Numbered from the stretch's first letter, positions 2,957-44,336 are shown. The stretch is DNA of 64,000 nt from a virus (IMGVR_UViG_2595698411_000001:37241-101240); one strand, 5' to 3'. Notes: generated by a model from the sequence alone, not told the origin. A program made the numbers and translations.

Positions 2957-3208
2957 ATGCTTAATTACGAAGCGAAAGAACTGATAGGCCAAACCGTTTA
3001 CCTTATCTCAGTTCAGTACATGGAAAACTACGGCAGTAGGTGGAAGTTCAAGCTGGGGGACACTCACGTTATCCCTGCAAGCGAAAAAACCCCAGAGACA
3101 ATGATAGCAGCCGTTGACTCTCTGGACTTGATTAACAACTCACAAGCGAGAGAAGTAATAATTTCAGTACAGTTTAAAGTACTGACAGCCGAAGACTGCG
3201 AATATTAA
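2957..3208 (+). CDS. hypothetical protein
   Basis: 83-aa ORF. Confidence 0.45.
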   Translation: MLNYEAKELIGQTVYLISVQYMENYGSRWKFKLGDTHVIPASEKTPETMIAAVDSLDLINNSQAREVIISVQFKVLTAEDCEY

Positions 3209-3231
3209 TAACGTTTTAAGCGGAGGTCACC

Positions 3232-3975
3232 ATGCGTGATGCAATACTTGAAGGTAACTTGCCTTTTCCAGGTACAGCCTTGTTCTCACTATACCCTCAA
3301 CAGAAAGATGACATAGAGCGCTTTTGGAAAGCAATCTGGCTCAACTTTCTGAATGACAGTGATACTAACGGTGTCTATTGGTACTCAGAACTAGGCTCTA
3401 AGCTTTACAACGAAGTAGTACGGCGCTTATCGCACCACGGCTGGGTAACTAGTCATGCGATTACAGCACGACGTTGGGCATGCGTTGAGCTGAATGAAGA
3501 AAAGCTCTTTGAGTTCATAACTCCTGACGAACTGTTGGATGTTAAGACAGAAAACAAGTACCAGAAGTATGTGCTTGAACTCAGAGAAGCAACAGCTTCA
3601 ACCCTTGTAAGACAGAACGGCGAAACTAAGCGCACAGGCCTTGTTAGAAAAGGCTTTCGTGACTCAGGCAATACTCAGTTTGGGTACGACATGGACGCAC
3701 TTCATCAATATGAGGAAGCAGTTAAGCTGAACCTAACTAAATCAATGGACAAGATCCGACAGGACTATCCAGAGATGAAGACAACTAGCGACTCTTATGA
3801 CAACGTCAGTGTAGGTATTTATGACTGGCACTACGAAAATAAGAACGAAGTGTTTACGACAGGCAATAACATCAATGATAGCCGAGGCAGGGCTATCAGT
3901 AGTTGCCTAAAGAAAGTGGCCAACCCTATTAGCAGTAAAGATTTCAGGGCAGCCCTAGTAATAACTTACGATTAA
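3232..3975 (+). CDS. T7-like phage RNA polymerase (N4 RNAPII-type), N-terminal piece carrying motif T (DxxGR)
   Basis: ...YDWHYENKNEVFTTGNNINDSRGRAISS aligns to T7 RNAP FPYNMDWRGRVYAVS (DxxGR). The ORF ends 26 aa after the motif. The next RNAP piece continues the T7 alignment with no residues missing. Confidence 0.6.
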   Translation: MRDAILEGNLPFPGTALFSLYPQQKDDIERFWKAIWLNFLNDSDTNGVYWYSELGSKLYNEVVRRLSHHGWVTSHAITARRWACVELNEEKLFEFITPDELLDVKTENKYQKYVLELREATASTLVRQNGETKRTGLVRKGFRDSGNTQFGYDMDALHQYEEAVKLNLTKSMDKIRQDYPEMKTTSDSYDNVSVGIYDWHYENKNEVFTTGNNINDSRGRAISSCLKKVANPISSKDFRAALVITYD

Positions 3976-4301: not shown

Positions 4302-5132
4302 ATGCTAGCAGAATGTAACGCAGTATTCTTATTCATCGCAGAACTAACAGGCAGCTTTCAGCCAGGTTCAGGTACAGAACAAGACAAGATTGAGTGCGGT
4401 AAGCAAGACTACATCAGAAACTTCCAGCTAGATCTCAACCTTCATGACGAAGACGACAGAAAAGATATGCACGAAAATGTGTGGCTATCAAGACTGTACC
4501 GAGAACTAGACACTTATTTCAACGTGCCTTCAGACAAAACCGCTAGAGCCTTGGCAGTAGACCCTGAGAGCAATCGCTACAGGTACTCAACGTTCCAGTG
4601 GCAAGTACCTATTGAACTAGATGCAAGTGCATCGATGCTTCAGTACGAAGGCTTACTTACTGGCGACAAACGACTGTTAGAAATGACAAACGTTATCGGT
4701 GACACCCTACAAGACCCTTGGAAACTAGAGGGAATGTCACGCCAAATGCTAAAGAAAGCGGCAACTCCAATGCTATACGGTTCTAGCCAAGCATGTCATG
4801 AGTTGTGGCAAGATAACAATATCCCTTATACGACTGATGACATAGCTTTGTACAATAAAGAAATGGCAGAAGGGCCCTTTGGTGTAGCAAACTTACTTAA
4901 AGAGTTCATCATCAATAACGCGGCGCCTAAGTCAGAAATGGAAGTTCATATCTGGGGAGAGAAGTTCAAGATATCGTGTAACCGTTTCCGTAACGTAGGT
5001 GAACAGACTAAAGCGTACAAGATATGGGATACGTTGGATGAGCGTTACAACATCATCCTACATACTGACACTAAGCGTGTGCCTGACCTAGAGCAGTTCA
5101 AACGGTACTTTATGACGTTACTCATTTTCTGA
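4302..5132 (+). CDS. T7-like RNA polymerase II catalytic piece (motifs A and B); 5' exon or N-terminal segment
   Basis: Motif A QVPIELDASASMLQYEGLL matches T7 PLAFDGSCSGIQHFSAML. Motif B RQMLKKAATPMLYGSS is an exact R-x3-K-x7-YG. The ORF reads into the intervening element and stops at 5133. Confidence 0.75.
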   Translation: MLAECNAVFLFIAELTGSFQPGSGTEQDKIECGKQDYIRNFQLDLNLHDEDDRKDMHENVWLSRLYRELDTYFNVPSDKTARALAVDPESNRYRYSTFQWQVPIELDASASMLQYEGLLTGDKRLLEMTNVIGDTLQDPWKLEGMSRQMLKKAATPMLYGSSQACHELWQDNNIPYTTDDIALYNKEMAEGPFGVANLLKEFIINNAAPKSEMEVHIWGEKFKISCNRFRNVGEQTKAYKIWDTLDERYNIILHTDTKRVPDLEQFKRYFMTLLIF

Positions 5133-6285
5133 TTGTGGGTGAGTATAAACATGGTGAATTCGGTGGACGCTAAGGGAGAAATCCTATGCCAATACCGAGC
5201 CAAGCTTAGCTAGGAATAGCTTTGAAGGTGTAGAGACTAGTACGAGAGGCCAGAACGGTCAATAATGTACGTAGGATACTCAAGTGAGATCCGAAGCGCC
5301 ATGCCCTACTTAGGTAGGTGAAGATATAGTCCCATACTCCGTGGAAATGCGGAGACTAGTGTTGATTATCTACATAGTAGAGTCTATAATATGTATTGTT
5401 ATGTATAATAAGGATTCTAATATGAATAGATATTACGTGTACTGGTATAGGCTGATTGAGTTTAATAATCCACATTGTGAAGGATACATAGGTATAACAA
5501 ACAATATGGAGCGTAGACATAAAGAACATTGTAGAAGTAAAGGTACTCACTTTGCTAATGCAATAAGTAAGTATGGGTTAGACAAAATCAGTTATGAGGT
5601 ACTGCATGAAACTGACAGCAGACAGGAAGCTTTAGACCTAGAAGCTTATTACCGTCCAGACGTAGGATTAGGATGGAATACTGCAAAAGGCGGTGAAGAT
5701 ACCTTAGCGTCAGTAAAATGTAGGAAAGTAAAGCTATACCATAAAGACAATCCTGAAAAACTTAGATGTTTTGATTCTATAGATCAAGCTTCTAAAGAAC
5801 TAGGGATTACCGCTTCAAGAATAGCTCAAGCATTATGCCGTAATACTAAGTATTATGGGTTTGATGGGTGGGCTGTATTGATAGATGAGAGTACAGAAAG
5901 AGGTAAGACTCTAAGTATTCAGGAAGTAATATCTATCAGAGTAAGTGGCGCTAAACGTAATAAACCAAGCCATTTTAAAGGTATGACTAATCGCTGGTCC
6001 GAAGAGGATAAAAAGCGAATTAGTGATCAACATAGAGGTAAGGTTATCTCAGATGAGCAAAAAGAAGTAGTAAGAAACAAGAATAGAGCTGCCCATAGTT
6101 CTTGTAAATCTATAACTTTAGTTCATCAGGATAATCCTGAAGTTGAGCATACTTACCATAGCATAGCAGAAGCCTCTAGGGAATTAAGTATACCTTTGAG
6201 TAGACTTAAGTCTAAAGCACAGAGAAAGCTGAATGTGTATGGTAAAGATGGCTGGAAGATAATTAAACTAGGTGCAGAGTAACGT
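5133..6285 (+). mobile_element. intervening element in the RNAPII gene: putative group I intron carrying a GIY-YIG homing endonuclease ORF
   Basis: It separates the motif-B piece from the motif-C piece of one T7-like RNAP. About 290 nt of relatively GC-rich, non-coding-looking sequence (5133-5421) precedes the homing-endonuclease ORF. That ORF is AT-rich with atypical codon usage. The downstream RNAP piece has no ATG. Confidence 0.45.
5422..6282 (+). CDS. GIY-YIG homing endonuclease with NUMOD-like repeats
   Basis: MNRYYVYWYRLIEFNNPHCEGYIGITNNMERRHKEH is a GIY-x10-YIG...R..H..E motif. Repeated Lys/Arg-rich modules follow. An AAGGAT ribosome-binding site precedes ATG 5422. An upstream in-frame ATG at 5341 is also possible. 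Confidence 0.75.
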   Translation: MNRYYVYWYRLIEFNNPHCEGYIGITNNMERRHKEHCRSKGTHFANAISKYGLDKISYEVLHETDSRQEALDLEAYYRPDVGLGWNTAKGGEDTLASVKCRKVKLYHKDNPEKLRCFDSIDQASKELGITASRIAQALCRNTKYYGFDGWAVLIDESTERGKTLSIQEVISIRVSGAKRNKPSHFKGMTNRWSEEDKKRISDQHRGKVISDEQKEVVRNKNRAAHSSCKSITLVHQDNPEVEHTYHSIAEASRELSIPLSRLKSKAQRKLNVYGKDGWKIIKLGAE

Positions 6286-12961: not shown

Positions 12962-13249
12962 ATGACTAACGACGAGAAATTGCAGGTTGTTGATGCGTAC
13001 CTTAAAGGCGAGACTATCGAAATGATGGACTCCCGCGGTCAATGGAAAGAAGTGTGCTTTAAGCAAAACAATCCTATAATCAACAATCTTGCGGTTTTTC
13101 GCGTTAAACCTGATTTTGTAGAGGCTCTTTACGAAACTTATGTAAAACAACTAAAGCTGCAGGGTACACCACCCTTAATATTTGACGAGTTTAAACTTGT
13201 TTACGGCGTAATAGAACCTTACATCAAAATGGAGGCGAGTAATGATTAA
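12962..13249 (+). CDS. hypothetical protein
   Basis: 95-aa ORF. Confidence 0.45.
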   Translation: MTNDEKLQVVDAYLKGETIEMMDSRGQWKEVCFKQNNPIINNLAVFRVKPDFVEALYETYVKQLKLQGTPPLIFDEFKLVYGVIEPYIKMEASND

Positions 13250-13514
13250 GCAAGACTTTGGATGGGCAGTAAATGCTATCAAAAAAGGCAAAAAAGCAAC
13301 CCGATCGGTGTGGGATGATAAAGACACTTTTATCTTCCTAGTTCCGGGGTCAAGTTTTAGCGTTAACGATTCTCCATTATCTAATGTTTATCCGCAAGGC
13401 ACTAAAATTGACTATACTCCGCATATCGACATGAAAACCGGAGGTGGTCCTGTAACACCATGGTCACCAAAGCAAGTAGACCTTCTTGCAGAAGACTGGG
13501 AACTAGTGCCCTAA
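13242..13514 (+). CDS. DUF2829-family small protein (Tad2-like candidate anti-Thoeris sponge)
   Basis: FGWAVNAIKKGKKATRSVWDDKDTFIFLVPG...YTPHIDMKTGGGPVTPWSPKQVDLLAEDWELV matches the DUF2829 signature as I remember it: (A/E)xKxGKKxxRxxW ... MKT ... PW..SQ.D.LAEDW. Confidence 0.5.
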   Translation: MIKQDFGWAVNAIKKGKKATRSVWDDKDTFIFLVPGSSFSVNDSPLSNVYPQGTKIDYTPHIDMKTGGGPVTPWSPKQVDLLAEDWELVP

Positions 13515-13532: not shown

Positions 13533-14033
13533 GTGAAAGTTGATTGGAAACAAGTAGCCAGTTCTCCTGGCTATAAAAGTCTTAAAGCTGCTCTTGTTAG
13601 AGACATTGGTGGTAACCGCCGTAACATGTCAGGACGCAGCAAAGAAGAAATGTACGCCCGGTTTAACTGGATTATTGCTCGTGCCCAGCATTACGCGCAT
13701 GTGCAGAATAGGCCTTTATCCAGCATCTTAAACGAATGGGAAGACAAAAGATCTTCTTGGTGGTTTGGGCACTACGCTGAATCATCGCACCCTAAACTAG
13801 GTTCAGGAAAGCCTAAAAACGTAAAACCTCAGTCAATGCGGAATTACTACAAAACTGATCCTTGGTTGAGGCGTAAGTCTCCTAAAGAACGTTTTAAGCA
13901 AATACGCAACACTAAGACTAGAGAGGCCAAATTTAATAGAGAGCACAGGCTAGGTAAAAAACCTAGGTGGTCTCCAGACCGTAAACGTATAAACGCTACG
14001 TACAGACGAATCAAACGACAAGAAAATCTGTAA
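13533..14033 (+). CDS. hypothetical basic protein (Arg/Lys-rich C-terminus, likely nucleic-acid binding)
   Basis: 166 aa. The C-terminal 70 residues are strongly basic. Confidence 0.5.
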   Translation: MKVDWKQVASSPGYKSLKAALVRDIGGNRRNMSGRSKEEMYARFNWIIARAQHYAHVQNRPLSSILNEWEDKRSSWWFGHYAESSHPKLGSGKPKNVKPQSMRNYYKTDPWLRRKSPKERFKQIRNTKTREAKFNREHRLGKKPRWSPDRKRINATYRRIKRQENL

Positions 14034-14426
14034 GCTGGTTGCCTGAAAGGAAAAGCATTACTAGAAGCAAGTTGTGTTGTGGAAAGTTACTTGCAAAGTA
14101 CTGGAGAGAATCGGGGAGGTTCAGCTAAACACAAATAATGCTGAAATATCCGATCAGAGGAAGACCTCATAAACATCTTATCAACATGCCTTTGAGGCTA
14201 ACGTGATAACAGTTCAACTAGCAGGGCTGATAAGATACCAATTTAACACGCCGTAAGCCTTACCCGACAAGTACACCAGCGGGATGATGTGTACAGGCTG
14301 CCGGAAGGAAAAGGGGAAATGTAGACGTGCCATGATCCGCAATGGCTGGAAACTACACTAGGTTGCTGATACACGTTATACCAGCAAAACCGGTACGGCG
14401 TACCTCACTTAATTAAGGAGTGTCTT

Positions 14427-14609
14427 ATGGACATGAAATATTTTAACTACGAGCATTTGCCTGAAAAGTTACAAAAAGTAAGTAAACCAATTGGCGACTT
14501 AGCACGTCAAATGGATAAGGATTTACCTGAAGGCGCAGAAAAAAGTGCCGGTATGCGTAAATTACTTGAAGCGAAAGACTGCATGGTGCGAGCTGCATTA
14601 AGTCAATAA
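14427..14609 (+). CDS. small hypothetical protein
   Basis: 60-aa ORF whose ATG is preceded by AAGGAG. Confidence 0.4.
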   Translation: MDMKYFNYEHLPEKLQKVSKPIGDLARQMDKDLPEGAEKSAGMRKLLEAKDCMVRAALSQ

Positions 14610-14622
14610 ATGTGTTGTTAGT

Positions 14623-14657
14623 CGACAACTTAGCCGCTGTTAGCGGAAGTCGTTTTT
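14623..14657 (+). terminator. rho-independent terminator
   Basis: Imperfect hairpin CGACAACTTAGCCGC-tgtt-AGCGGAAGTCG followed by TTTTT. Confidence 0.5.
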
Positions 14658-16225
14658 AGGTACACGGTGTACTAAGTGGGTTCAATTCCCGCCGTGTGTA
14701 ATTTGTGTGCAGGCCTGCGGGCAGATTACATACGCTTGTCTGGTGCAAGGTTAAGAGGTAAAACTACCGGTTCGAGTCCGGTCGCCTAAAAGCGCAACCC
14801 AATTAAACAAGACAACGCGGCAGCATGTCGCCGCTCCGCCCATGCTGCGTTGTTAGTGCCGGTGAGGTGACGAACTCACTGTAATAAATCGTCCCTGTGC
14901 GCAACTGCTAGCGCAAGGCACACAGGCCAATCATCCCTTTATGGGGTGTTTTGGAGATACGTTTACAGCAACTTGTTTTTAACCAGTTGTTATTATGTGG
15001 GCCATAGTCAGTAGACGTATCTGCCAAAACATATTTGAACTAGGATCAGCCATGCCTGAAAACAAAAAGCTTTATCCCGGTATACACACGCCGTGCTATC
15101 CAGGCAAGTTTGTACTATCAAAAGACGAAGTCTCAGGATACATCCTTACAAATCCTATGATGGTTTCTATAGCTGCACATCAAATTAATAGCTTTATACG
15201 TAACTGTATAGCTGTCAAAGGAGACATTAACAATGAATAAATGGATCAGCGTTAAAAATAAGCTTCCTCCAAAAAACGTTACCGTCATTGGCAAGTTTCC
15301 TAGCATGTATCGCAATGTTCCTTATCACGTATCTGACTGCCATTATGATGGTGCTTGGAAAATGCACGGCAATGACTCAGTGCACGACACGTATGCCAAT
15401 GATCCTGTTGCGTGGCAACCGATGGAAGACTCCGATGACCATACTGATTAGAGTAAAACGCAAATGCGATGGAGAAACCGGAGTCGTTAAAAACGCTAGA
15501 GGAACTAGTGACGGTTTAGAGTGGTTAACGGTCGTGTTTGACAGAAACTTGCCAATAGCCCGAAACGTACGGCTATCTCATTTTGAAATACTTTCTGTAG
15601 AACAGAGCAAATGAATAAAACACTTTAGGGTGTTTTGTAGAGGTGTCTGCATTCTATTAACCATAGTTATGCTGACAGTCACAAATAAGCCGCAGGCACT
15701 TCTAACAAAATACCTTTTACGGCGCTTGGAGAAACCGACGGGTGGATCTGGTACAGAATCGATTAACGAGGTTCGAGTCCTCGGAGCGCCAACTTTTACA
15801 ACGTATCGTTCCTGCCGATTGCCCATCTATTGAAAATGACGCAGTTAAATCTTAAATCTGTACGAGATGGGTACAGACAGCATCGTGAGAGATGCAACGA
15901 TACACCTTTTTCCATCCCCAACGTGAGCCGCGCTGTATCTAGTGGTCTTACTCCTATTCGCGATAAGGGTTTAAGAAAGCTAGAATACACGTACATGGGA
16001 AGGCTCAGGTCCAGTTAATTACTTGACTAGGAGGTTCGAATCCTTCCTTTGGGGACCACTTTTTCAAACGGGATAGTTCTCTGCAGCTTTGGTTGCTGGT
16101 GCATCAGCGCCTTAGCCAAGAAATTGGTATGAGAAGAAAACACCGTCTTATTTATTGTGAAATGCAAATAGCGTAAGTAAGCCTGTGGAGTGAGAGTCGA
16201 TATCTCCTATCCTGTCCCCTTTAAC

Positions 16226-16301
16226 GCCCCTATAGCTCAGCGTGTAGAGCAGACGACTCATAATCGTTAGGTCACTGGTTCAAATCCGGTTAGGGGCACC
16301 A
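16226..16301 (+). tRNA. tRNA-Met(CAU): tRNA-Met (anticodon CAU; could be initiator, elongator or lysidine-type Ile)
   Basis: Hand-folded cloverleaf. Acceptor GCCCCTA/TAGGGGC, D-arm GCTC-AGCGTGTA-GAGC, anticodon arm GACGA-CTCATAA-TCGTT with anticodon CAT, T-arm ACTGG-TTCAAAT-CCGGT, discriminator A, and an encoded CCA. Confidence 0.85.
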
Positions 16302-16483
16302 TTTCAATGGGGTATTAGCAGACGTCTAAAGCGCTGGGTAGACTGGTGTATGCCAATGCCCAGAACGGGTAACTACGTAGTCCCGTATACTCCACCATTT
16401 AGCTGGCCCATTGCGTAGCGCGTGGCGTCATTAAAACGTCAGTACTAAAACAAGTACCAGCCAGCAATTTTTAAGGAATCGTT

Positions 16484-16882
16484 ATGGAACAAGAATACAA
16501 CACCATTAAAAAGTTTTACGGCGATAAAACGGCAAAACGCTCTGGTGTACCTTTAATGAACCACATAGACGAAGGCCTTGAAATACTAAAAAGTCTTAAC
16601 GCCTCTCAAACAGAACTAGCGGCGTTTTGCCTCCACCCGATAGTACAGAACAGCGAAGATGTAGATTTTGTTACTTCTATGTCTGTTTTGAAATTAGCTG
16701 AAGAATACCGCGATAAAGCTAACGCTTACCTATGCCGACCAGAAAACGATAATATCCTGTTTACAGAGCAGCTTACCCCTAAACTAGATGGCGGTATGTC
16801 CTTGTCTTGTCGTCGCCTGTTATTTGCCGATAAAGTCCAAAACCAGAAAGACTTTTTTAATTTATCACGCATCTACTCATGA
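16484..16882 (+). CDS. hypothetical protein
   Basis: 132-aa ORF. Confidence 0.5.
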   Translation: MEQEYNTIKKFYGDKTAKRSGVPLMNHIDEGLEILKSLNASQTELAAFCLHPIVQNSEDVDFVTSMSVLKLAEEYRDKANAYLCRPENDNILFTEQLTPKLDGGMSLSCRRLLFADKVQNQKDFFNLSRIYS

Positions 16883-16975
16883 CCGCAGACGCAACTTGCG
16901 GCTTTACTTTAATTTATGGCTAGTTTACTTATCAAATGATCAATTCTTTGACGGGTCTTTAGTCAGGAAAGCGTT

Positions 16976-17278
16976 ATGACAGATTCTTACCACTACTGGC
17001 TGTTTACTGATGAAGGTTATAATCAACTAGTCCTTATATGCACGATTGTCTTTGCTATTATTTTTTTAGGGCTGGCCGGTTACTTTCATTACAACCGCAA
17101 TTACGTAGAAAGAAATACTTTTTTTAACTGTATATTCATATCTCCTGTTATTGGCGCCTTTTTTCCAGCAATAGCGATGATGTGCGTAGCAGCAGCGGCA
17201 ATGTATTTGTTTTATCGAATTTGCATATCTCTCTTTCTTTTTGTAATGCCCCAAAAACCGCTAAACAAGACAAAGTAG
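16976..17278 (+). CDS. small membrane protein (2-3 TM helices)
   Basis: Hydrophobic helices LVLICTIVFAIIFLGLAGYF and ISPVIGAFFPAIAMMCVAAAAMYLFY. Confidence 0.45.
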   Translation: MTDSYHYWLFTDEGYNQLVLICTIVFAIIFLGLAGYFHYNRNYVERNTFFNCIFISPVIGAFFPAIAMMCVAAAAMYLFYRICISLFLFVMPQKPLNKTK

Positions 17279-17285
17279 GACAATC

Positions 17286-17648
17286 ATGAATAAAGGCGTA
17301 AAAATAGGACTTTCTTTTTTAGCTTTGGGAGGAGTTCTCTCATTGACAGGTAATGTGCTTGAAGTCTTTAAAAAAAGAACAGCAGAGCAGCTGTATCAAG
17401 AAAAACTGGCTCAAGCGGTCTCAGAAGCCTCACATGCGCGTTTAGTTTGCCGTTTAGATCGTTCTAACCAAGAATTAAAACGTCTTAAAGAAGCGATGAA
17501 AAGCGACAACCCTGCCGCTACTTACCAAACACTAGAAATTTTTCCTTTTGACGCGTGTAGTGAAAACGTCGCTGAAAAAGAATTGGCTGTATCTAAACTA
17601 CAAGAGTTTAAAAATCACTACGTAGGGCAGATCAAAAAAAGCTTGTAA
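17286..17648 (+). CDS. secreted/periplasmic protein (signal peptide)
   Basis: MNKGVKIGLSFLALGGVLSLTGNV signal-like N-terminus; 120 aa. Confidence 0.45.
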   Translation: MNKGVKIGLSFLALGGVLSLTGNVLEVFKKRTAEQLYQEKLAQAVSEASHARLVCRLDRSNQELKRLKEAMKSDNPAATYQTLEIFPFDACSENVAEKELAVSKLQEFKNHYVGQIKKSL

Positions 17649-18067
17649 GCAAAAGTTTCAATTCCCAAGACGGCGTTTATTTCAAGGAAACTACAATGTC
17701 AGCAGGGTTACTTATTCTCGAAGCAGGTAAACGTCATGAGTAAGAAGCTTACCTTAAAACCTCATGCTCGATTACTTCGCCAAGACCGCAAGTACTATCA
17801 ACAAGTTCAATACAACAACACCTTTTGTAAGGACGTTGACGGACAGTGGTACTTTTGTTCTAAGGACGGTGAGCCACAGGAGGCAGTGAACTTCACTGTT
17901 ATCGAAGAGAAACCCAGATTTATTAAGGTCATTGAAAACCCTATCGGATAATTTGGCATCAATTTTCAACAGTCACCTTAGCAATGCCCCTCTCAAAGAC
18001 AGAGGATCAGGCGTAGGAGTGCTACGGGTTCAATTCCCAAGGTGACTACCTATTCAAGGCCCACAAA

Positions 18068-29841: not shown

Positions 29842-30507
29842 ATGTTGAAAGATAGAGCCGGCGATCAAGTTACCCGTGTATGTGATGACTGTGGTGATGA
29901 AAAACGAGTCAGTTATTGGAACGTCTACAAGAAAGATGCCCACCGTTGTTATCGGTGCAATAACAAACTGACCAACTTGGGAAAAACGCCCTGGAATAAA
30001 GGGCACAAGCAACAACCCAAGAATGTTGGAAATATCTATACCCACTCAGACGGCTACCCGATGGTGTGGGTAGGTAAGACCAACACAAACCATGGATATA
30101 TGCCTGTTCACAGATTGGTAATGAGCGACCTTAATGGACGCTTGGTTACCAAAGAAGAAAAGGTACATCACGTAAACGGAGACAAAGAGGATTTCAGGCC
30201 TGTAAACCTGTTCCTCTGTAACAATATGTCCCACCACCGAAAAGTACATGCACAGCTTGAAACGCTGTCTATGTCTTTAGTGAAAATGGGGCTTATTGAG
30301 TTTGATCACGCTAAAGGCGAGTACAGCTTAAGCCGCCCTATGGAGAAATTCATAGAGGAAAAACTGGGTGAATTGCTGGAAACCCCTAACGAGAAAGACG
30401 AGGGCAATCAGCAGCCAAGCTCTGCAGAACTTGCAGAGAAGGTTCAACGACTATTCCGTGAGGAAGTACACCAGAAGTCTGGTGGAAGCGCCCAGCCCCT
30501 GCCGTAA
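29842..30507 (+). CDS. HNH homing endonuclease
   Basis: VHHVNGDKEDFRPVNLFLCNNMSHHRKVH is an HNH motif. The N-terminus has Zn-finger-like CDDCGD...CYRCNNK. Confidence 0.7.
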   Translation: MLKDRAGDQVTRVCDDCGDEKRVSYWNVYKKDAHRCYRCNNKLTNLGKTPWNKGHKQQPKNVGNIYTHSDGYPMVWVGKTNTNHGYMPVHRLVMSDLNGRLVTKEEKVHHVNGDKEDFRPVNLFLCNNMSHHRKVHAQLETLSMSLVKMGLIEFDHAKGEYSLSRPMEKFIEEKLGELLETPNEKDEGNQQPSSAELAEKVQRLFREEVHQKSGGSAQPLP

Positions 30508-30571
30508 GTAGGGTGATGATATAGTCTCTTCTGCATGGAAACATGCAGCAGTTCATAGTTTAGGAGACTGG

Positions 30572-43442: not shown

Positions 43443-44336
43443 ATGAGCCTTATTCAACATGTAACCAGAACTCTTATATGGGATGATGATTACTCAGGTG
43501 TTAGGGGCAATTGCGTGCCTTCTTCCTGCCCAATTCCTGCAGAACAAAGAAAATTCGCAGTACAAACAGTCTTTTGTTTTCTAAAAGACGTTATTCCGCA
43601 CGACTCCTGGTTTATAGGCGGCAGTGCTGCACGATTAGGAACAATACCTTTTAACGACATAGACGTATTTTTTGCTGATGAAGAAAAAGCAAAAGAGGCT
43701 ATAGACGCCTTAAAAGATAAAACACCGCCAGAACCTTTGCATGATGATATTTTTGCCCCACAAACACCTATTACTTACGCAGTAAACCACGCTAAAGAAA
43801 ATACACCTGTACTTGTTACAAACATGTACCAAAACTCTTTTATGAGCATGAATGCTTCAATAAAAATAGCAAACGTGTCTGACCCGGCAACTGTCCAGTT
43901 TATTACTAAAAATACCGGAAACTACAAAGACATTTTCAGCAGGGTAGATTTAAATGTATGCAAAATAGGTATATTACCTAACGGCAGAAAAGTGTCAGAT
44001 CCTAAGGCAATGAGCGATATAAAAGTATCAAGATTGCAGCATGAAACTATGCTAAGAGTAGTTAAATACGCGTCACGTCTTTACAGAAAACCGTTTGTAG
44101 CAAACGCATATATCCGTGCAGCAAAAGATGCTATCGATTCTTTTATAGAAGACGACAGCCCTTCGCCAGACAGTCAACAATTTTACCAGTTTCAGTCTCA
44201 CATACCTGACAATAACGTGATCTTAACCAACGAGTTGCTTAAACGACAGATTTCTCAAGTCTTTACTCCTGACTCACCGGTAAACAGGTATTTCAGAGAA
44301 CAAGCCCTAAAACGAGCACCCGAATTATTACTATGA
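43443..44336 (+). CDS. Pol-beta-superfamily nucleotidyltransferase, CCA-adding enzyme / poly(A) polymerase-like head domain
   Basis: FIGGSAARLGTIPFNDIDVFF matches GGxVRDxLLGxxxxDxD of class II tRNA nucleotidyltransferases. Confidence 0.45.
   Translation: MSLIQHVTRTLIWDDDYSGVRGNCVPSSCPIPAEQRKFAVQTVFCFLKDVIPHDSWFIGGSAARLGTIPFNDIDVFFADEEKAKEAIDALKDKTPPEPLHDDIFAPQTPITYAVNHAKENTPVLVTNMYQNSFMSMNASIKIANVSDPATVQFITKNTGNYKDIFSRVDLNVCKIGILPNGRKVSDPKAMSDIKVSRLQHETMLRVVKYASRLYRKPFVANAYIRAAKDAIDSFIEDDSPSPDSQQFYQFQSHIPDNNVILTNELLKRQISQVFTPDSPVNRYFREQALKRAPELLL

What the first reader, a model, noticed from the sequence alone, without database searches (positions are those of the whole stretch)
14040..16480. 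Non-coding island with one canonical tRNA-Met(CAU) and several T-arm-like motifs that do not fold into canonical tRNAs
The 2.4 kb between 14040 and 16480 has almost no convincing ORFs. It contains a well-formed tRNA-Met(CAU) at 16226-16301 with an encoded CCA. It also contains at least four GGTTCGAnTCC-type T-loop motifs, at about 14676, 14770, 15772 and 16035. Each sits in a correct 5-bp T-stem. I could not complete a canonical cloverleaf for any of them by hand. At 15721-15791 a 7-bp acceptor pairs (GGCGCTT/GAGCGCC) and the T-arm is perfect, but no anticodon stem forms. At 16035 the sequence ends ...TTTGGGGACCA, which is a perfect 3' end, yet no partner 5' strand lies within 95 nt. These could be tRNAs with non-canonical features or introns, tRNA-derived pseudogenes or decoys, or processing or recombination signals. 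The genome also encodes a CCA-adding-like nucleotidyltransferase (43443-44336). That points to functional small RNAs that need 3'-end repair, for example as a counter to host anticodon or CCA nucleases.
Basis: seen in the sequence. Interest (0 to 1): 0.6.

Follow-up and report, generated by a model that had tools for sequence, protein, structure and literature searches.

The report
Phage array of tRNA-like small RNAs
The stray tRNA "T-arm" motifs in this marine phage are neither chance nor hidden tRNAs: they are parts of a same-strand array of conserved, structured, tRNA-like small RNAs, two of them undescribed families and one always paired with an uncharacterised phage protein.

Summary
The window is Alteromonas phage AD45-P1. 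GGTTCRANTCC occurs six times in the window (0.1 expected), always on the + strand, within 14679-18037. Only 16226-16301 is a canonical tRNA, and it is probably tRNA-Ile2(CAU), not Met. The other motifs are not tRNAs by ARAGORN or Rfam.

They are not junk either. Motifs 1 and 2 are the two T-arms of one ~145-nt RNA, "F" (14651-14794), found in six divergent phages or prophages with significant covariation. TLS3 (15721-15791), a tRNA-Ala-like RNA "G" (16309-16397; G3·U70, A73, CCA) and TLS6 (17971-18050) are better conserved in a relative than the neighbouring genes, and G and TLS6 also show compensatory changes.

The left edge of the island holds a ~210-nt RNA, "E" (14031-14240). It has 53 predicted pairs, 26 of them compensatory, and no Rfam match. 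It follows homologues of the 166-aa ORF in 15 of 15 contexts.

Most modules end in a closing helix followed by CC or CCA. My best reading is a co-transcribed array cut out by tRNA-processing enzymes to give stable tRNA mimics. Their function is unknown. The island is not ORF-free, and the "CCA-adding enzyme" could not be confirmed.

The parts
13533..14033 (+). 166-aa ORF with a basic C-terminal tail and no known family. It is the invariant upstream partner of E RNA.
   Evidence: No Pfam, NCBIfam or PDB match. The AlphaFold2 model is all-helical with pLDDT 83. The family has 356 clusters at 50% identity. A homologue sits directly upstream of E in every context that has upstream sequence.
14031..14240 (+). 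E RNA, about 210 nt. It starts at the ORF's stop codon and ends in an 8-9-bp terminal helix followed by A-CCA.
   Evidence: nhmmer matches in 15 independent contexts. RNAalifold predicts 53 pairs, 26 with compensatory changes. 95.4% of cells are paired. Covariation is 0.51, against 0.24 in shuffles (0 of 500 reach it) and 0.06-0.10 when slid. No Rfam match.
14427..14609 (+). A real 60-aa gene inside the 'non-coding island'.
   Evidence: phrog_1761, E=3.6e-33. Nucleotide-level homologues occur in Vibrio and Acinetobacter phages.
14651..14794 (+). F RNA, about 145 nt. It has an outer stem CGUUUUUA/UAAAAGCG, a 7-nt bulge and an invariant GGUG/CGCC helix. T-arm 1 lies at 14676-14692, long hairpin H2 at 14693-14735, hairpin H3 at 14736-14750, and T-arm 2 at 14766-14782.
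   Evidence: Homologues in L010, L014, L175, L063 and L146. Covariation is 0.51, against 0.195 in shuffles (0 of 500) and 0.08-0.19 when slid. MFE z-score is -3.97.
14995..15451 (+). Two overlapping real small genes of 81 and 72 aa. The second is DUF551-like.
   Evidence: PHROG E=1.9e-60 and 1.2e-52. Weak DUF551 hit, E=0.0035.
15617..15718 (+). Module A, a long hairpin RNA element followed by a U-run. It is shared at 92-96% identity with three unrelated Alteromonas podoviruses.
   Evidence: The 13-bp stem shows a compensatory G-C to A-U change. z=-5.0.
15721..15791 (+). TLS3, a 71-nt tRNA-like RNA. It has a 7-bp acceptor, a canonical T-arm, and a triloop hairpin in place of an anticodon arm.
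   Evidence: Rfam mascRNA-like hit of 24 bits, below threshold. z=-2.3. 92.5% identical in L010, against 76-79% for its neighbours. All substitutions among P1, P4 and L010 spare the pairing.
15803..15906 (+). Module B, a structured RNA with closing stem GUAUCGUU/AACGAUAC followed by A-CC-UUUUU.
   Evidence: 92% identical in phage R22Y, with two hairpins each carrying a compensatory double change. z=-2.6.
15915..16058 (+). TLS4, a 144-nt RNA. It has closing stem UCCCCAA/UUGGGGA, an 84-nt hairpin, a small hairpin, a canonical T-arm and CCA.
   Evidence: Fold z=-3.3. Found only in P1 and P2. It lies inside a 340-nt segment that is absent from phage PT15-A5.
16070..16219 (+). Module C, a series of hairpins upstream of the tRNA.
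   Evidence: 79-81% identical in L010 and PT15-A5, with pair-preserving changes.
16226..16301 (+). The only canonical tRNA. Its anticodon is CAU and it is most likely tRNA-Ile2 (lysidine).
   Evidence: The best E. coli matches, found in all 5426 genomes, are annotated tRNA-Ile. The tRNA is absent from L010 and from P3/P4, and its anticodon arm is deleted in PT15-A5.
16309..16397 (+). G RNA, an 89-nt tRNA-shaped RNA. Its acceptor is GGGGUAU/AUACUCC, with G3·U70, A73 and an encoded CCA. It has no anticodon loop.
   Evidence: 92.6% identical in L010. In L016 the acceptor is GGGGCUA/UAGCUCC-ACCA, with three compensatory pairs and G3·U70 kept.
16484..16882 (+). 132-aa HD_4-like ORF (RelA/SpoT-type hydrolase fold) directly after the RNA array.
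   Evidence: Pfam HD_4, E=2e-4, below the cut-off. 5 of 30 homologues hit HD_4, best E=7.6e-8. The conserved doublet is H-P, not H-D.
17971..18050 (+). TLS6. It has a 9-bp closing helix plus a 3-bp T-stem (a 12-bp stack), no D-arm, hairpin CCUCU-CAAAGAC-AGAGG, and tail A-CC.
   Evidence: z=-2.7. The acceptor shows a compensatory A-U to G-C change in L010. The T-stem is disrupted in P3/P4.

Best explanation
Between 14031 and 18050 the phage carries a same-strand array of small structured RNAs, interleaved with a few small genes. The RNAs are E, F, A, TLS3, B, TLS4, C, one true tRNA, G and TLS6.

The T-arm motifs are working parts (T-loops) of tRNA-derived or tRNA-mimicking RNAs that selection maintains. 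They are neither decoding tRNAs nor dead pseudogenes.

Most modules are closed by a helix between their 5' and 3' ends, followed by a short unpaired tail ending in CC or CCA (TLS3 of P1 reads AC) and a U-rich spacer. That is the layout of a tRNA precursor.

Inferred mechanism: the array is transcribed with the flanking early or middle genes. Host tRNA-maturation enzymes then cut it into stable 70-210-nt RNAs: RNase P at the 5' side of the closing helices, RNase E or exonucleases in the U-rich trailers, and CCA-adding enzyme where the final A is missing.

The products would present tRNA acceptor/T-arm surfaces without anticodons. G even carries the alanine identity set. They would therefore engage or titrate factors that read tRNA ends. 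E would act together with the 166-aa protein encoded just upstream.

Shown: sequence, structure, conservation, covariation and gene linkage. Inferred: transcription, processing and mode of action. Function is not established.
For: - Motif clustering: 6 observed against 0.1 expected, all on one strand.
- Not tRNAs: ARAGORN and Rfam call none of the extra motifs.
- F has homologues in six divergent phages or prophages. Covariation is 0.51 against 0.195 in shuffles (0 of 500), and its T-stems carry 2-3 compensatory pairs each.
- E has 26 of 53 pairs with compensatory changes and 95% pairing, and the slid controls collapse. It is linked to the protein in 15 of 15 contexts.
- TLS3, G and TLS6 are 92.5%, 92.6% and 86.9% identical between P1 and L010. 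Module C is 79% and the neighbouring ORFs 67-76%.
- Compensatory changes occur in the TLS6 acceptor, in the G acceptor with G3·U70 retained, and in the B and A stems.
- F, TLS3, G and TLS6 are kept in L010, which lacks the real tRNA.
- Closing helix plus CC/CCA tail, read directly from the sequence for E, F, B, TLS3, TLS4, G and TLS6.
- In other phages E is followed directly by canonical tRNA-Leu genes (L163, L229) or by acceptor-plus-T-arm RNAs with large inserts (L018, L146).
- Fold z-scores range from -2.3 to -5.0.
Against: - There are no expression or end-mapping data, and no promoter was identified.
- TLS4 has no homologue outside P1 and P2.
- The T-stem of TLS6 is broken in P3/P4 and its 5' strand is partly replaced there, so some members may be decaying.
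- TLS3 shows no double compensatory change, only pair-neutral substitutions.
- A regex for the 'CC plus U-rich trailer' spacer is only mildly enriched: 6 of 33 + strand hits fall in the island.
- The G family has only three distinct sequences.
- Module boundaries coincide with indel junctions, so part of the pattern may reflect recombination history.
Confidence: 0.6

Rival explanations
1. The extra T-arm elements are relics of a decaying phage tRNA gene cluster. They would be neutral pseudogenes noticed only because the T-arm is the most recognisable part of a tRNA.
For: - They sit beside a real tRNA, and phage tRNA clusters turn over quickly.
- The tRNA itself is lost in L010 and in P3/P4, and its anticodon arm is deleted in PT15-A5.
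- The T-stem of TLS6 is disrupted in P3/P4.
- TLS4 is lineage-specific.
- G and TLS6 look tRNA-derived: G has a tRNA-Ala-type acceptor and TLS6 has a class-II-like layout.
Against: - F is conserved across six distant phages with significant covariation, and its GGUG/CGCC helix is invariant.
- TLS3 and G are more conserved than the adjacent genes.
- Compensatory pairs occur in the F, G and TLS6 stems.
- F, TLS3, G and TLS6 persist where the real tRNA is gone.
Confidence: 0.12
2. The elements act in cis as 'tRNA punctuation'. RNase P or RNase Z sites would cut the polycistronic early transcript into separate mRNAs and leave protective structured 3' ends. The excised RNAs themselves would have no role.
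For: - The elements lie between ORFs. E follows the 166-aa gene, F follows the 60-aa gene, and TLS6 sits 18 nt upstream of ORF 18068.
- They have acceptor-like helices with NCC tails.
- E abuts its gene's stop codon in most contexts (the gap is about 300 nt in L063).
Against: - A punctuation role does not explain the ~210-nt complexity and sequence conservation of E or the two-T-loop architecture of F.
- It does not explain tandem runs of RNAs with no ORF between them (15617-16397).
- It does not explain retention of G3·U70/A73/CCA in G.
- The two roles are not mutually exclusive.
Confidence: 0.18
3. They are non-canonical but functional decoding tRNAs, for example with introns, odd arms or suppressor anticodons, that standard programs miss.
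For: - Acceptor stems, T-arms and CCA are present.
- The L016 homologue of G can be drawn with a 5-bp stem and a 7-nt loop UUCUAUA, giving anticodon CUA (sequence).
- The genome has group I introns elsewhere.
Against: - The Rfam tRNA model gives no hit at E<=10.
- Relaxed, intron and mitochondrial modes of ARAGORN give only poor or inconsistent folds.
- TLS3 has a triloop, P1's G has a 30-nt arm, TLS6 has A33 and no D-arm, and F has two T-arms.
- No group I intron hit falls in this region.
Confidence: 0.03
4. The motifs are recombination or integration signals: att-like tRNA 3' fragments or cassette-boundary repeats that drive modular gene shuffling.
For: - Indel junctions fall at module ends. 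The P3/P4 deletion of 15802-17984 starts right after TLS3, through CACCTT microhomology.
- P3 has a 286-bp insertion just after F.
- PT15-A5 joins module A directly to module C.
- The tRNA is cleanly absent from L010.
- Modules A, B and D are shared at 92-96% identity among unrelated Alteromonas phages.
Against: - AD45-P1 has no integrase gene near the array.
- Whole structured units are conserved with covariation, not just short boundary repeats.
- Shuffling at the similar spacers is more simply a by-product of a repeated tail-and-spacer design.
Confidence: 0.05

Closest known systems
Phage T4 RNAC and RNAD (small RNAs from the T4 tRNA region)
   Same: Both are small non-tRNA RNAs encoded within a phage tRNA region, and their role is unknown (PMC3014915).
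   Different: No sequence relationship was tested. Here there are about nine modules with only one true tRNA. Two of them (E, F) form families spread over many unrelated phages, and E is tied to a specific protein gene.
tmRNA tRNA-like domain (SsrA)
   Same: TLS4, the L018 and L146 elements and G have an acceptor helix and an adjacent arm. The anticodon region is replaced by other structure. G carries G3·U70, A73 and CCA, like tmRNA and tRNA-Ala (the identity rules are from my own knowledge).
   Different: - No hit to any Rfam tmRNA model and none from ARAGORN.
- The elements are 80-160 nt rather than 260-400 nt.
- No tag reading frame or pseudoknots were identified.
- The arm next to the acceptor in G has a 12-nt loop, not a T-loop.
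- The 166-aa protein shows no SmpB match.
Bacterial and phage YrlA (Y RNA-like) tRNA mimics
   Same: Both are non-coding RNAs with tRNA-like T-arm and acceptor modules (PMC4201824, listed).
   Different: There is no Rfam match. No Ro60 (rsr) gene is annotated nearby in AD45-P1. In these RNAs the T-arm abuts the 3' terminal helix, as in a tRNA.
mascRNA / MALAT1-type tRNA-like elements and mitochondrial tRNA punctuation
   Same: Both are acceptor-plus-T-arm mimics that lack a decoding anticodon arm and serve as RNase P/Z processing sites. TLS3 gives a sub-threshold mascRNA-menRNA hit (24.2 bits).
   Different: Those elements are eukaryotic. The hit is below the gathering score of 42.5. Processing has not been shown here.
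Large phage-associated ncRNAs that sit next to tRNAs (GOLLD, ROOL)
   Same: Both are complex structured RNAs of unknown function in phage genomes, located beside tRNA genes (from my own knowledge).
   Different: No Rfam GOLLD or ROOL match. E and F are much smaller, and E has a dedicated protein partner.

Membership tests
tRNA (Rfam RF00005 / ARAGORN) | Cloverleaf with a D-arm and a 5-bp anticodon stem carrying a 7-nt loop, scoring above the model threshold. | tested here: not met
   Only 16226-16301 passes. F, TLS3, TLS4 and G give no tRNA hit at E<=10 in the region scan. TLS6, which lies outside that scan, gives none at the gathering score in the whole-window scan. Relaxed ARAGORN folds are poor.
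tRNA (Rfam RF00005 / ARAGORN) | T-arm: a 5-bp stem with loop T-T-C-R-A-N-N and a G53-C61 closing pair. | tested here: met
   Met at 14676-14692, 14766-14782, 15765-15781 and 16030-16046. TLS6 has only a 3-bp stem.
tRNA (Rfam RF00005 / ARAGORN) | 7-bp acceptor helix followed by a discriminator base and CCA. | tested here: met
   TLS3 has a 7-bp helix then A-AC (A-CC in P4, G-CC in L010). TLS4 has a 7-bp helix then CCA. G has a 7-bp helix then A-CCA. TLS6 has a 9-bp helix then A-CC.
tmRNA (Rfam RF00023, RF01849-51; ARAGORN) | Match to a tmRNA covariance model or to the ARAGORN tmRNA search. | tested here: not met
   No hit in the window or in related loci. The one exception is a 17-nt, 11.9-bit fragment in L063.
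tmRNA (Rfam RF00023, RF01849-51; ARAGORN) | G3·U70 alanine identity with A73-CCA. | tested here: met
   Met only by G, in P1, L010 and L016. Not met by TLS3, TLS4, TLS6 or E.
tmRNA (Rfam RF00023, RF01849-51; ARAGORN) | Internal tag reading frame with a resume codon, plus pseudoknots. | tested here: inconclusive
   No conserved reading frame was seen in E. The candidate GCA is GUA or ACA in other members. There was no systematic pseudoknot search.
YrlA / Y RNA | Rfam model match and adjacency to an rsr (Ro60) gene. | tested here: not met
   No Rfam hit. No Ro60-like gene is annotated in AD45-P1. The proteins were not scanned for a TROVE domain.
mascRNA-menRNA (RF01684) | Score at or above the gathering threshold of 42.5 bits. 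| tested here: not met
   TLS3 scores 24.2 bits, E=0.069.
CCA-adding enzyme / class II nucleotidyltransferase (ORF 43443-44336) | Match to the PolyA_pol head domain, or structural similarity to CCA-adding enzymes. | tested here: inconclusive
   No Pfam hit even at E<=10. Only the GGS-x12-DID motif is present. The AlphaFold2 model has pLDDT 36 and is unusable. The best PDB profile hit is non-significant (uridylyltransferase, E=0.34).
tRNA-Ile2 (CAU, lysidine) for 16226-16301 | Closest similarity to tRNA-Ile(CAU) genes rather than tRNA-Met, and no initiator features. | tested here: met
   The best matches in all 5426 E. coli genomes are annotated tRNA-Ile, at 84% identity over 76 nt. The G1-C72 pair is intact and the anticodon stem lacks three G-C pairs. 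Lysidine modification itself cannot be tested here.
RelA/SpoT-type HD hydrolase (Pfam HD_4) for ORF 16484-16882 | HD_4 match above the cut-off, and a catalytic His-Asp doublet. | tested here: inconclusive
   E=2e-4, 21.6 bits, against a cut-off of 27.2. 5 of 30 homologues hit, best E=7.6e-8. The conserved doublet is H-P. No PDB sequence hit.

The most novel reading that the evidence does not exclude
E RNA and the 166-aa protein form a previously unrecognised phage ribonucleoprotein. It would travel with a variable battery of anticodon-less tRNA mimics: F with its two T-loops, the alanine-identity G RNA, TLS3, TLS4 and TLS6. Together they would form a new kind of counter-defence or translation-hijack module. 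It would present decoy tRNA acceptor/CCA ends to host enzymes or toxins that act on tRNA 3' ends or elbows, or it would use alanylated G RNA on stalled ribosomes.
Probability: 0.2. Interest if true: 0.9.

Novelty: new variant of a known kind. Interest (0 to 1): 0.72.

Why it matters
Phage tRNA genes are usually read as codon-usage helpers or as replacements for tRNAs that host defences cleave. This locus shows something different. Phages also keep tRNA-shaped RNAs that cannot decode, and in a close relative they outlast the only real tRNA.

Two of these RNAs (E and F) are families with strong covariation, no Rfam entry, and a distribution across N4-like, temperate and prophage genomes of marine gammaproteobacteria. 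One of them is invariably coupled to an uncharacterised protein family with 356 clusters at 50% identity.

That yields concrete, testable objects:
- a candidate RNA-protein pair;
- a two-T-loop RNA;
- a minimal RNA with alanine identity.

These can be used to ask how phages exploit the tRNA-processing, charging or tRNA-targeting machinery. The result also warns annotators that 'non-coding gaps' beside phage tRNAs can hold dense arrays of functional RNAs.

Tried and rejected
- Hidden canonical tRNAs. ARAGORN was run at default, at lowered thresholds (-ps, -ps80, -ps70), and in intron, tmRNA and mitochondrial modes. Rfam was run at gathering and at E<=10. Rejected.
- Close relatives in IMG/VR by exact patterns. 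The 166-aa protein peptides, the core of module A and the TLS3 3' end all gave zero hits.
- Degenerate E pattern GGCTAACGTGN{6,8}GTTCRAC on genomes and metagenomes. By my estimate most hits should be chance (about 400 expected in 596 Gb). They were filtered with an nhmmer profile, and only 24 of the 271 loci then held, about 16 of them distinct sequences, carried E.
- Fold of the 166-aa protein. The AlphaFold2 model is good (pLDDT 83), but Foldseek against PDB found nothing (best E=5). The afdb50 library was unavailable.
- The idea that E plus downstream elements form a permuted or two-piece tmRNA, with the 166-aa protein as an SmpB analogue. E contains a GGGGCUAACG...GUUCGAC stretch that recalls a tmRNA 5' end. 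However, that stretch sits inside a closed, covarying helix. No tmRNA model matches, no conserved tag frame exists, and the protein shows no SmpB similarity. Not supported.
- A local closing stem for T-arm 1 (GUACACG/CGUGUGU). I set it aside in favour of the F-wide architecture seen in the homologues.
- Sigma-70 promoter scan. Fewer hits than in shuffles.
- Trailer-motif regex. Only weak enrichment.
- NTase structure. The model is too poor for a fold search.
- The HD ORF as a small alarmone hydrolase. Only weak HD_4 similarity, and the doublet is H-P, so this is kept as a note only.
Full report
**Identity of the window**

The region is 100% identical to Alteromonas phage vB_AmaP_AD45-P1 (KF005317, 103.9 kb). 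This is a distant N4-like podovirus with a virion RNA polymerase. Window position equals record position minus 37240. GenBank annotates only three hypothetical ORFs and a 'tRNA-Met' in 14040-16480.

**Checking the observation**

- ARAGORN finds one tRNA, at 16226-16301 with anticodon CAU. Rfam agrees at 69 bits.
- The pattern GGTTCRANTCC occurs six times in the 64-kb window: at 14679, 14769, 15770, 16033, 16277 and 18027. The expectation is 0.10, and 0 of 100 shuffles reach six.
- All six are on the + strand. There are none in the rest of the 104-kb genome.
A fifth extra motif, at 18027, was missed.
- None of them is a canonical tRNA. The Rfam tRNA and tmRNA models give nothing at E<=10. The only hit is a sub-threshold mascRNA-like match to 15721-15790 (24 bits). 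ARAGORN in relaxed, intron or mitochondrial modes gives only poor, inconsistent cloverleaves.
- The claim of 'almost no ORFs' is overstated. ORFs 14427-14609, 14995-15240 and 15233-15451 have strong PHROG matches, and the last is DUF551-like.

**Comparison with sister phages**

- AD45-P3 and P4 lack 15802-17984. That segment holds TLS4, the tRNA, G and the HD-like ORF. The junction lies right after TLS3, at a CACCTT microhomology.
- P3 has a 286-bp insertion right after the second T-arm element.
- Substitutions between P1 and P4 begin only at 15693, which marks a recombination boundary.
- Segments of the island are shared at 81-96% identity with unrelated Alteromonas podoviruses, always in intergenic positions. 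These are module A (15617-15718; PT15-A5, PT11-V19, R22Y), module B (15803-15906; R22Y), and module C plus the tRNA (PT15-A5).
- The shared stems carry compensatory changes. The 13-bp stem of A has a G-C to A-U change. Both hairpins of B have double changes.
- In PT15-A5 the homologue of the tRNA has lost exactly its anticodon arm but keeps the acceptor, D and T arms.

**A diverged relative**

Homologues of the upstream 166-aa ORF led to contig L010, an AD45-like phage that is about 84% identical in the left part.

- L010 keeps both T-arm elements after the 60-aa gene, and it keeps TLS3, module C, G and TLS6.
- It lacks A, B, TLS4 and the real tRNA.
- Identities between P1 and L010 are 92.5% for TLS3, 92.6% for G and 86.9% for TLS6. 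Module C is 79%, the HD-like ORF 76%, and the downstream ORFs 67%.
- T-stem 1 changes from GUGGG/CCCGC to UCGGG/CCCGA. T-stem 2 changes from ACCGG/CCGGU to GCUGG/CCAGC. The TLS6 acceptor changes from GUCACCU/AGGUGAC to GUCGCCU/AGGCGAC. All of these preserve pairing.
- Substitutions in TLS3 among P1, P4 and L010 avoid or preserve the paired positions.

**F RNA**

Its layout, from 5' to 3', is:

- outer stem CGUUUUUA/UAAAAGCG;
- a 7-nt bulge;
- an invariant GGUG/CGCC helix;
- T-arm 1;
- a long hairpin and then a short hairpin;
- a conserved UAAGRNNUARAAC stretch;
- T-arm 2, abutting CGCC.

The same architecture, with about 100 nt between the T-arms, occurs in L010 and in two metagenomic phage contigs (L014, L175). 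It also occurs in the genomes of Vreelandella venusta (L063) and Marinobacterium litorale (L146).

On the six-sequence alignment, 82.8% of cells pair. Covariation is 0.51, against 0.195 in shuffles (0 of 500) and 0.08-0.19 for slid controls. The P1 sequence folds with z=-3.97.

**E RNA**

Directly after the stop codon of the 166-aa ORF lies a ~210-nt element at 14031-14240. It is conserved in every homologous context examined.

- These contexts include N4-like contigs (L018 carries a vRNAP), temperate contigs with integrases (L014, L016), IMG/VR contigs, and the two bacterial genomes.
- RNAalifold predicts 53 pairs, 26 of them with compensatory changes.
- 95.4% of cells pair. Covariation is 0.51, against 0.24 in shuffles (0 of 500) and 0.06-0.10 when slid.
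- E ends in an 8-9-bp terminal helix followed by (C/U)A-CC, with a final A in some members. That helix encloses a 6-bp helix and a highly conserved loop, GGGGCUAACGUGAYAACAGUUCGAC.
- No Rfam family matches E, F or the other elements in any locus.
- A 166-aa homologue lies directly upstream of E in 12 of 12 contexts with enough sequence, and never occurs without E. Three more distant members (36-41% identity) also carry E.
- The protein has no Pfam, NCBIfam or PDB match. Its confident all-helical AlphaFold2 model (pLDDT 83) finds nothing with Foldseek against PDB.
- The protein family has 356 clusters at 50% identity.

**G RNA and other tRNA-like ends**

After the tRNA lies an 89-nt RNA at 16309-16397 with acceptor GGGGUAU/AUACUCC, A73 and an encoded CCA.

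- It has a G3·U70 wobble pair. From my own knowledge, that is the alanine identity set.
- It has a tRNA-like four-way fold but no 7-nt anticodon loop.
- In L016 the acceptor is GGGGCUA/UAGCUCC-ACCA. Three pairs changed on both sides, while G1-G4 and G3·U70 were kept.
- TLS4 (15915-16058) closes with UCCCCAA/UUGGGGA-CCA, 133 nt apart, z=-3.3.
- TLS6 has a 9-bp closing helix plus a 3-bp T-stem, giving a 12-bp stack as in a tRNA. It has no D-arm and ends in A-CC.
- Other phages place acceptor-plus-T-arm RNAs with large inserts right after E (L018, L146). Others place canonical tRNA-Leu genes there (L163, L229).
- Modules E, F, B, TLS3, TLS4, G and TLS6, like the tRNA, are each followed by a short tail ending in CC (AC after TLS3 in P1) and a U/A-rich spacer, often ending in CAA. 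I read this directly from the sequence. A regex for it is only mildly enriched.

**Interpretation**

Clustering on one strand, wide conservation, covariation and higher identity than the neighbouring genes together exclude chance. For F, E, TLS3 and G they also argue against neutral pseudogenes. TLS4 and TLS6 are less secure.

The common layout is a closing helix, a CC or CCA tail and a U-rich trailer, all in an array that also contains a real tRNA. That is the layout of tRNA precursors. I therefore infer that the host tRNA-maturation machinery excises these RNAs and that they accumulate as stable tRNA mimics lacking anticodons.

What they do is open. Decoys or sponges for factors that read tRNA ends, alanylation of G, and an E-protein RNP are all plausible but untested. 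A cis 'punctuation' role for mRNA processing is compatible with the data and may coexist. Indel junctions at module borders suggest that the similar spacers also promote modular shuffling.

ORF 43443-44336 has a generic Pol-beta nucleotidyltransferase motif (GGS-x12-DID) and nothing more.

- It has no Pfam hit and only two homologues.
- Its AlphaFold2 model is unusable, with pLDDT 36.
- Its PDB profile hits are non-significant.

Calling it CCA-adding is unsupported.

**Known analogues**

[quoted passage not shown] Other known tRNA mimics are the tmRNA tRNA-like domain, YrlA RNAs (PMC4201824) and mascRNA. None of their models matches here. E and F appear to be undescribed families.

Noticed in passing
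window 16226-16301: The GenBank 'tRNA-Met' (CAU) best matches E. coli genes annotated tRNA-Ile, at 84% identity, in all 5426 genomes. It has a G1-C72 pair and lacks the G-C-rich anticodon stem of an initiator. It is therefore probably tRNA-Ile2, which reads AUA after lysidine modification.
   Followed up: partly
window 5100-5354 and 30284-30548: Two group I introns (Rfam 55.7 and 105.7 bits). The second splits the thyX gene, and GenBank annotates a homing endonuclease ORF between the two thyX halves.
   Followed up: no
L004 (phage PT15-A5) ~3270-3335: The homologue of the tRNA has lost 12 nt, which is exactly the anticodon arm. It keeps the acceptor, D and T arms, and ARAGORN no longer calls it. 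It looks like a tRNA caught turning into an anticodon-less mimic.
   Followed up: partly
L004 ~3345-3460; L006 ~3105-3230; L010 12380-12485: A further ~115-nt module, 'D' (GCCAAGU...ACUUGGC closing stem), is shared by PT15-A5, PT11-V19 and the AD45-like contig L010. AD45-P1 lacks it.
   Followed up: no
window 14241-14426: 186 nt of unassigned non-coding sequence lies between E and the 60-aa gene. Among the loci compared, similarity was found only in L010. It contains AAGUAC and GGAAAAG strings that recall E, and a GGUAC-GGC-GUACC hairpin. nhmmer finds no second E copy here.
   Followed up: partly
window 13242-13514: The gene just upstream of the 166-aa ORF corresponds to a Tad2-like (PF11195, anti-Thoeris) protein in the syntenic contig L010. 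The RNA array may therefore sit in a counter-defence neighbourhood.
   Followed up: no
window 16484-16882: This HD_4-like (RelA/SpoT hydrolase-type) ORF follows the RNA array. The family is widespread in phages, but the usual His-Asp doublet is His-Pro. The P1 copy (132 aa) is shorter than most homologues (150-170 aa).
   Followed up: partly
window 15802-17984 and 14804-14812: Sister phages P3 and P4 lack 2.18 kb (TLS4, tRNA, G, the HD-like ORF and three small ORFs), joined at a CACCTT microhomology. P3 has a 286-bp insertion carrying a 264-nt ORF right after F. P1 and P4 are identical up to 15692 and then about 7% diverged.
   Followed up: yes
L016 ~4964-5042: The G homologue is 79 nt long, which is tRNA-sized. 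It can be drawn with a 5-bp stem and a 7-nt loop UUCUAUA (anticodon CUA, amber). ARAGORN does not call it even at low thresholds. An RF-1-domain gene lies about 850 nt downstream.
   Followed up: partly
L005 (phage R22Y) 3085-3330: A ~124-nt tandem duplication covers the 3' end of module B and the start of the downstream gene. It could be real or an assembly artefact.
   Followed up: no
L272 3606-4151: In one distant E-bearing contig an RNA ligase (PF09414) gene lies two genes downstream of E, and a DNA ligase gene lies upstream.
   Followed up: no
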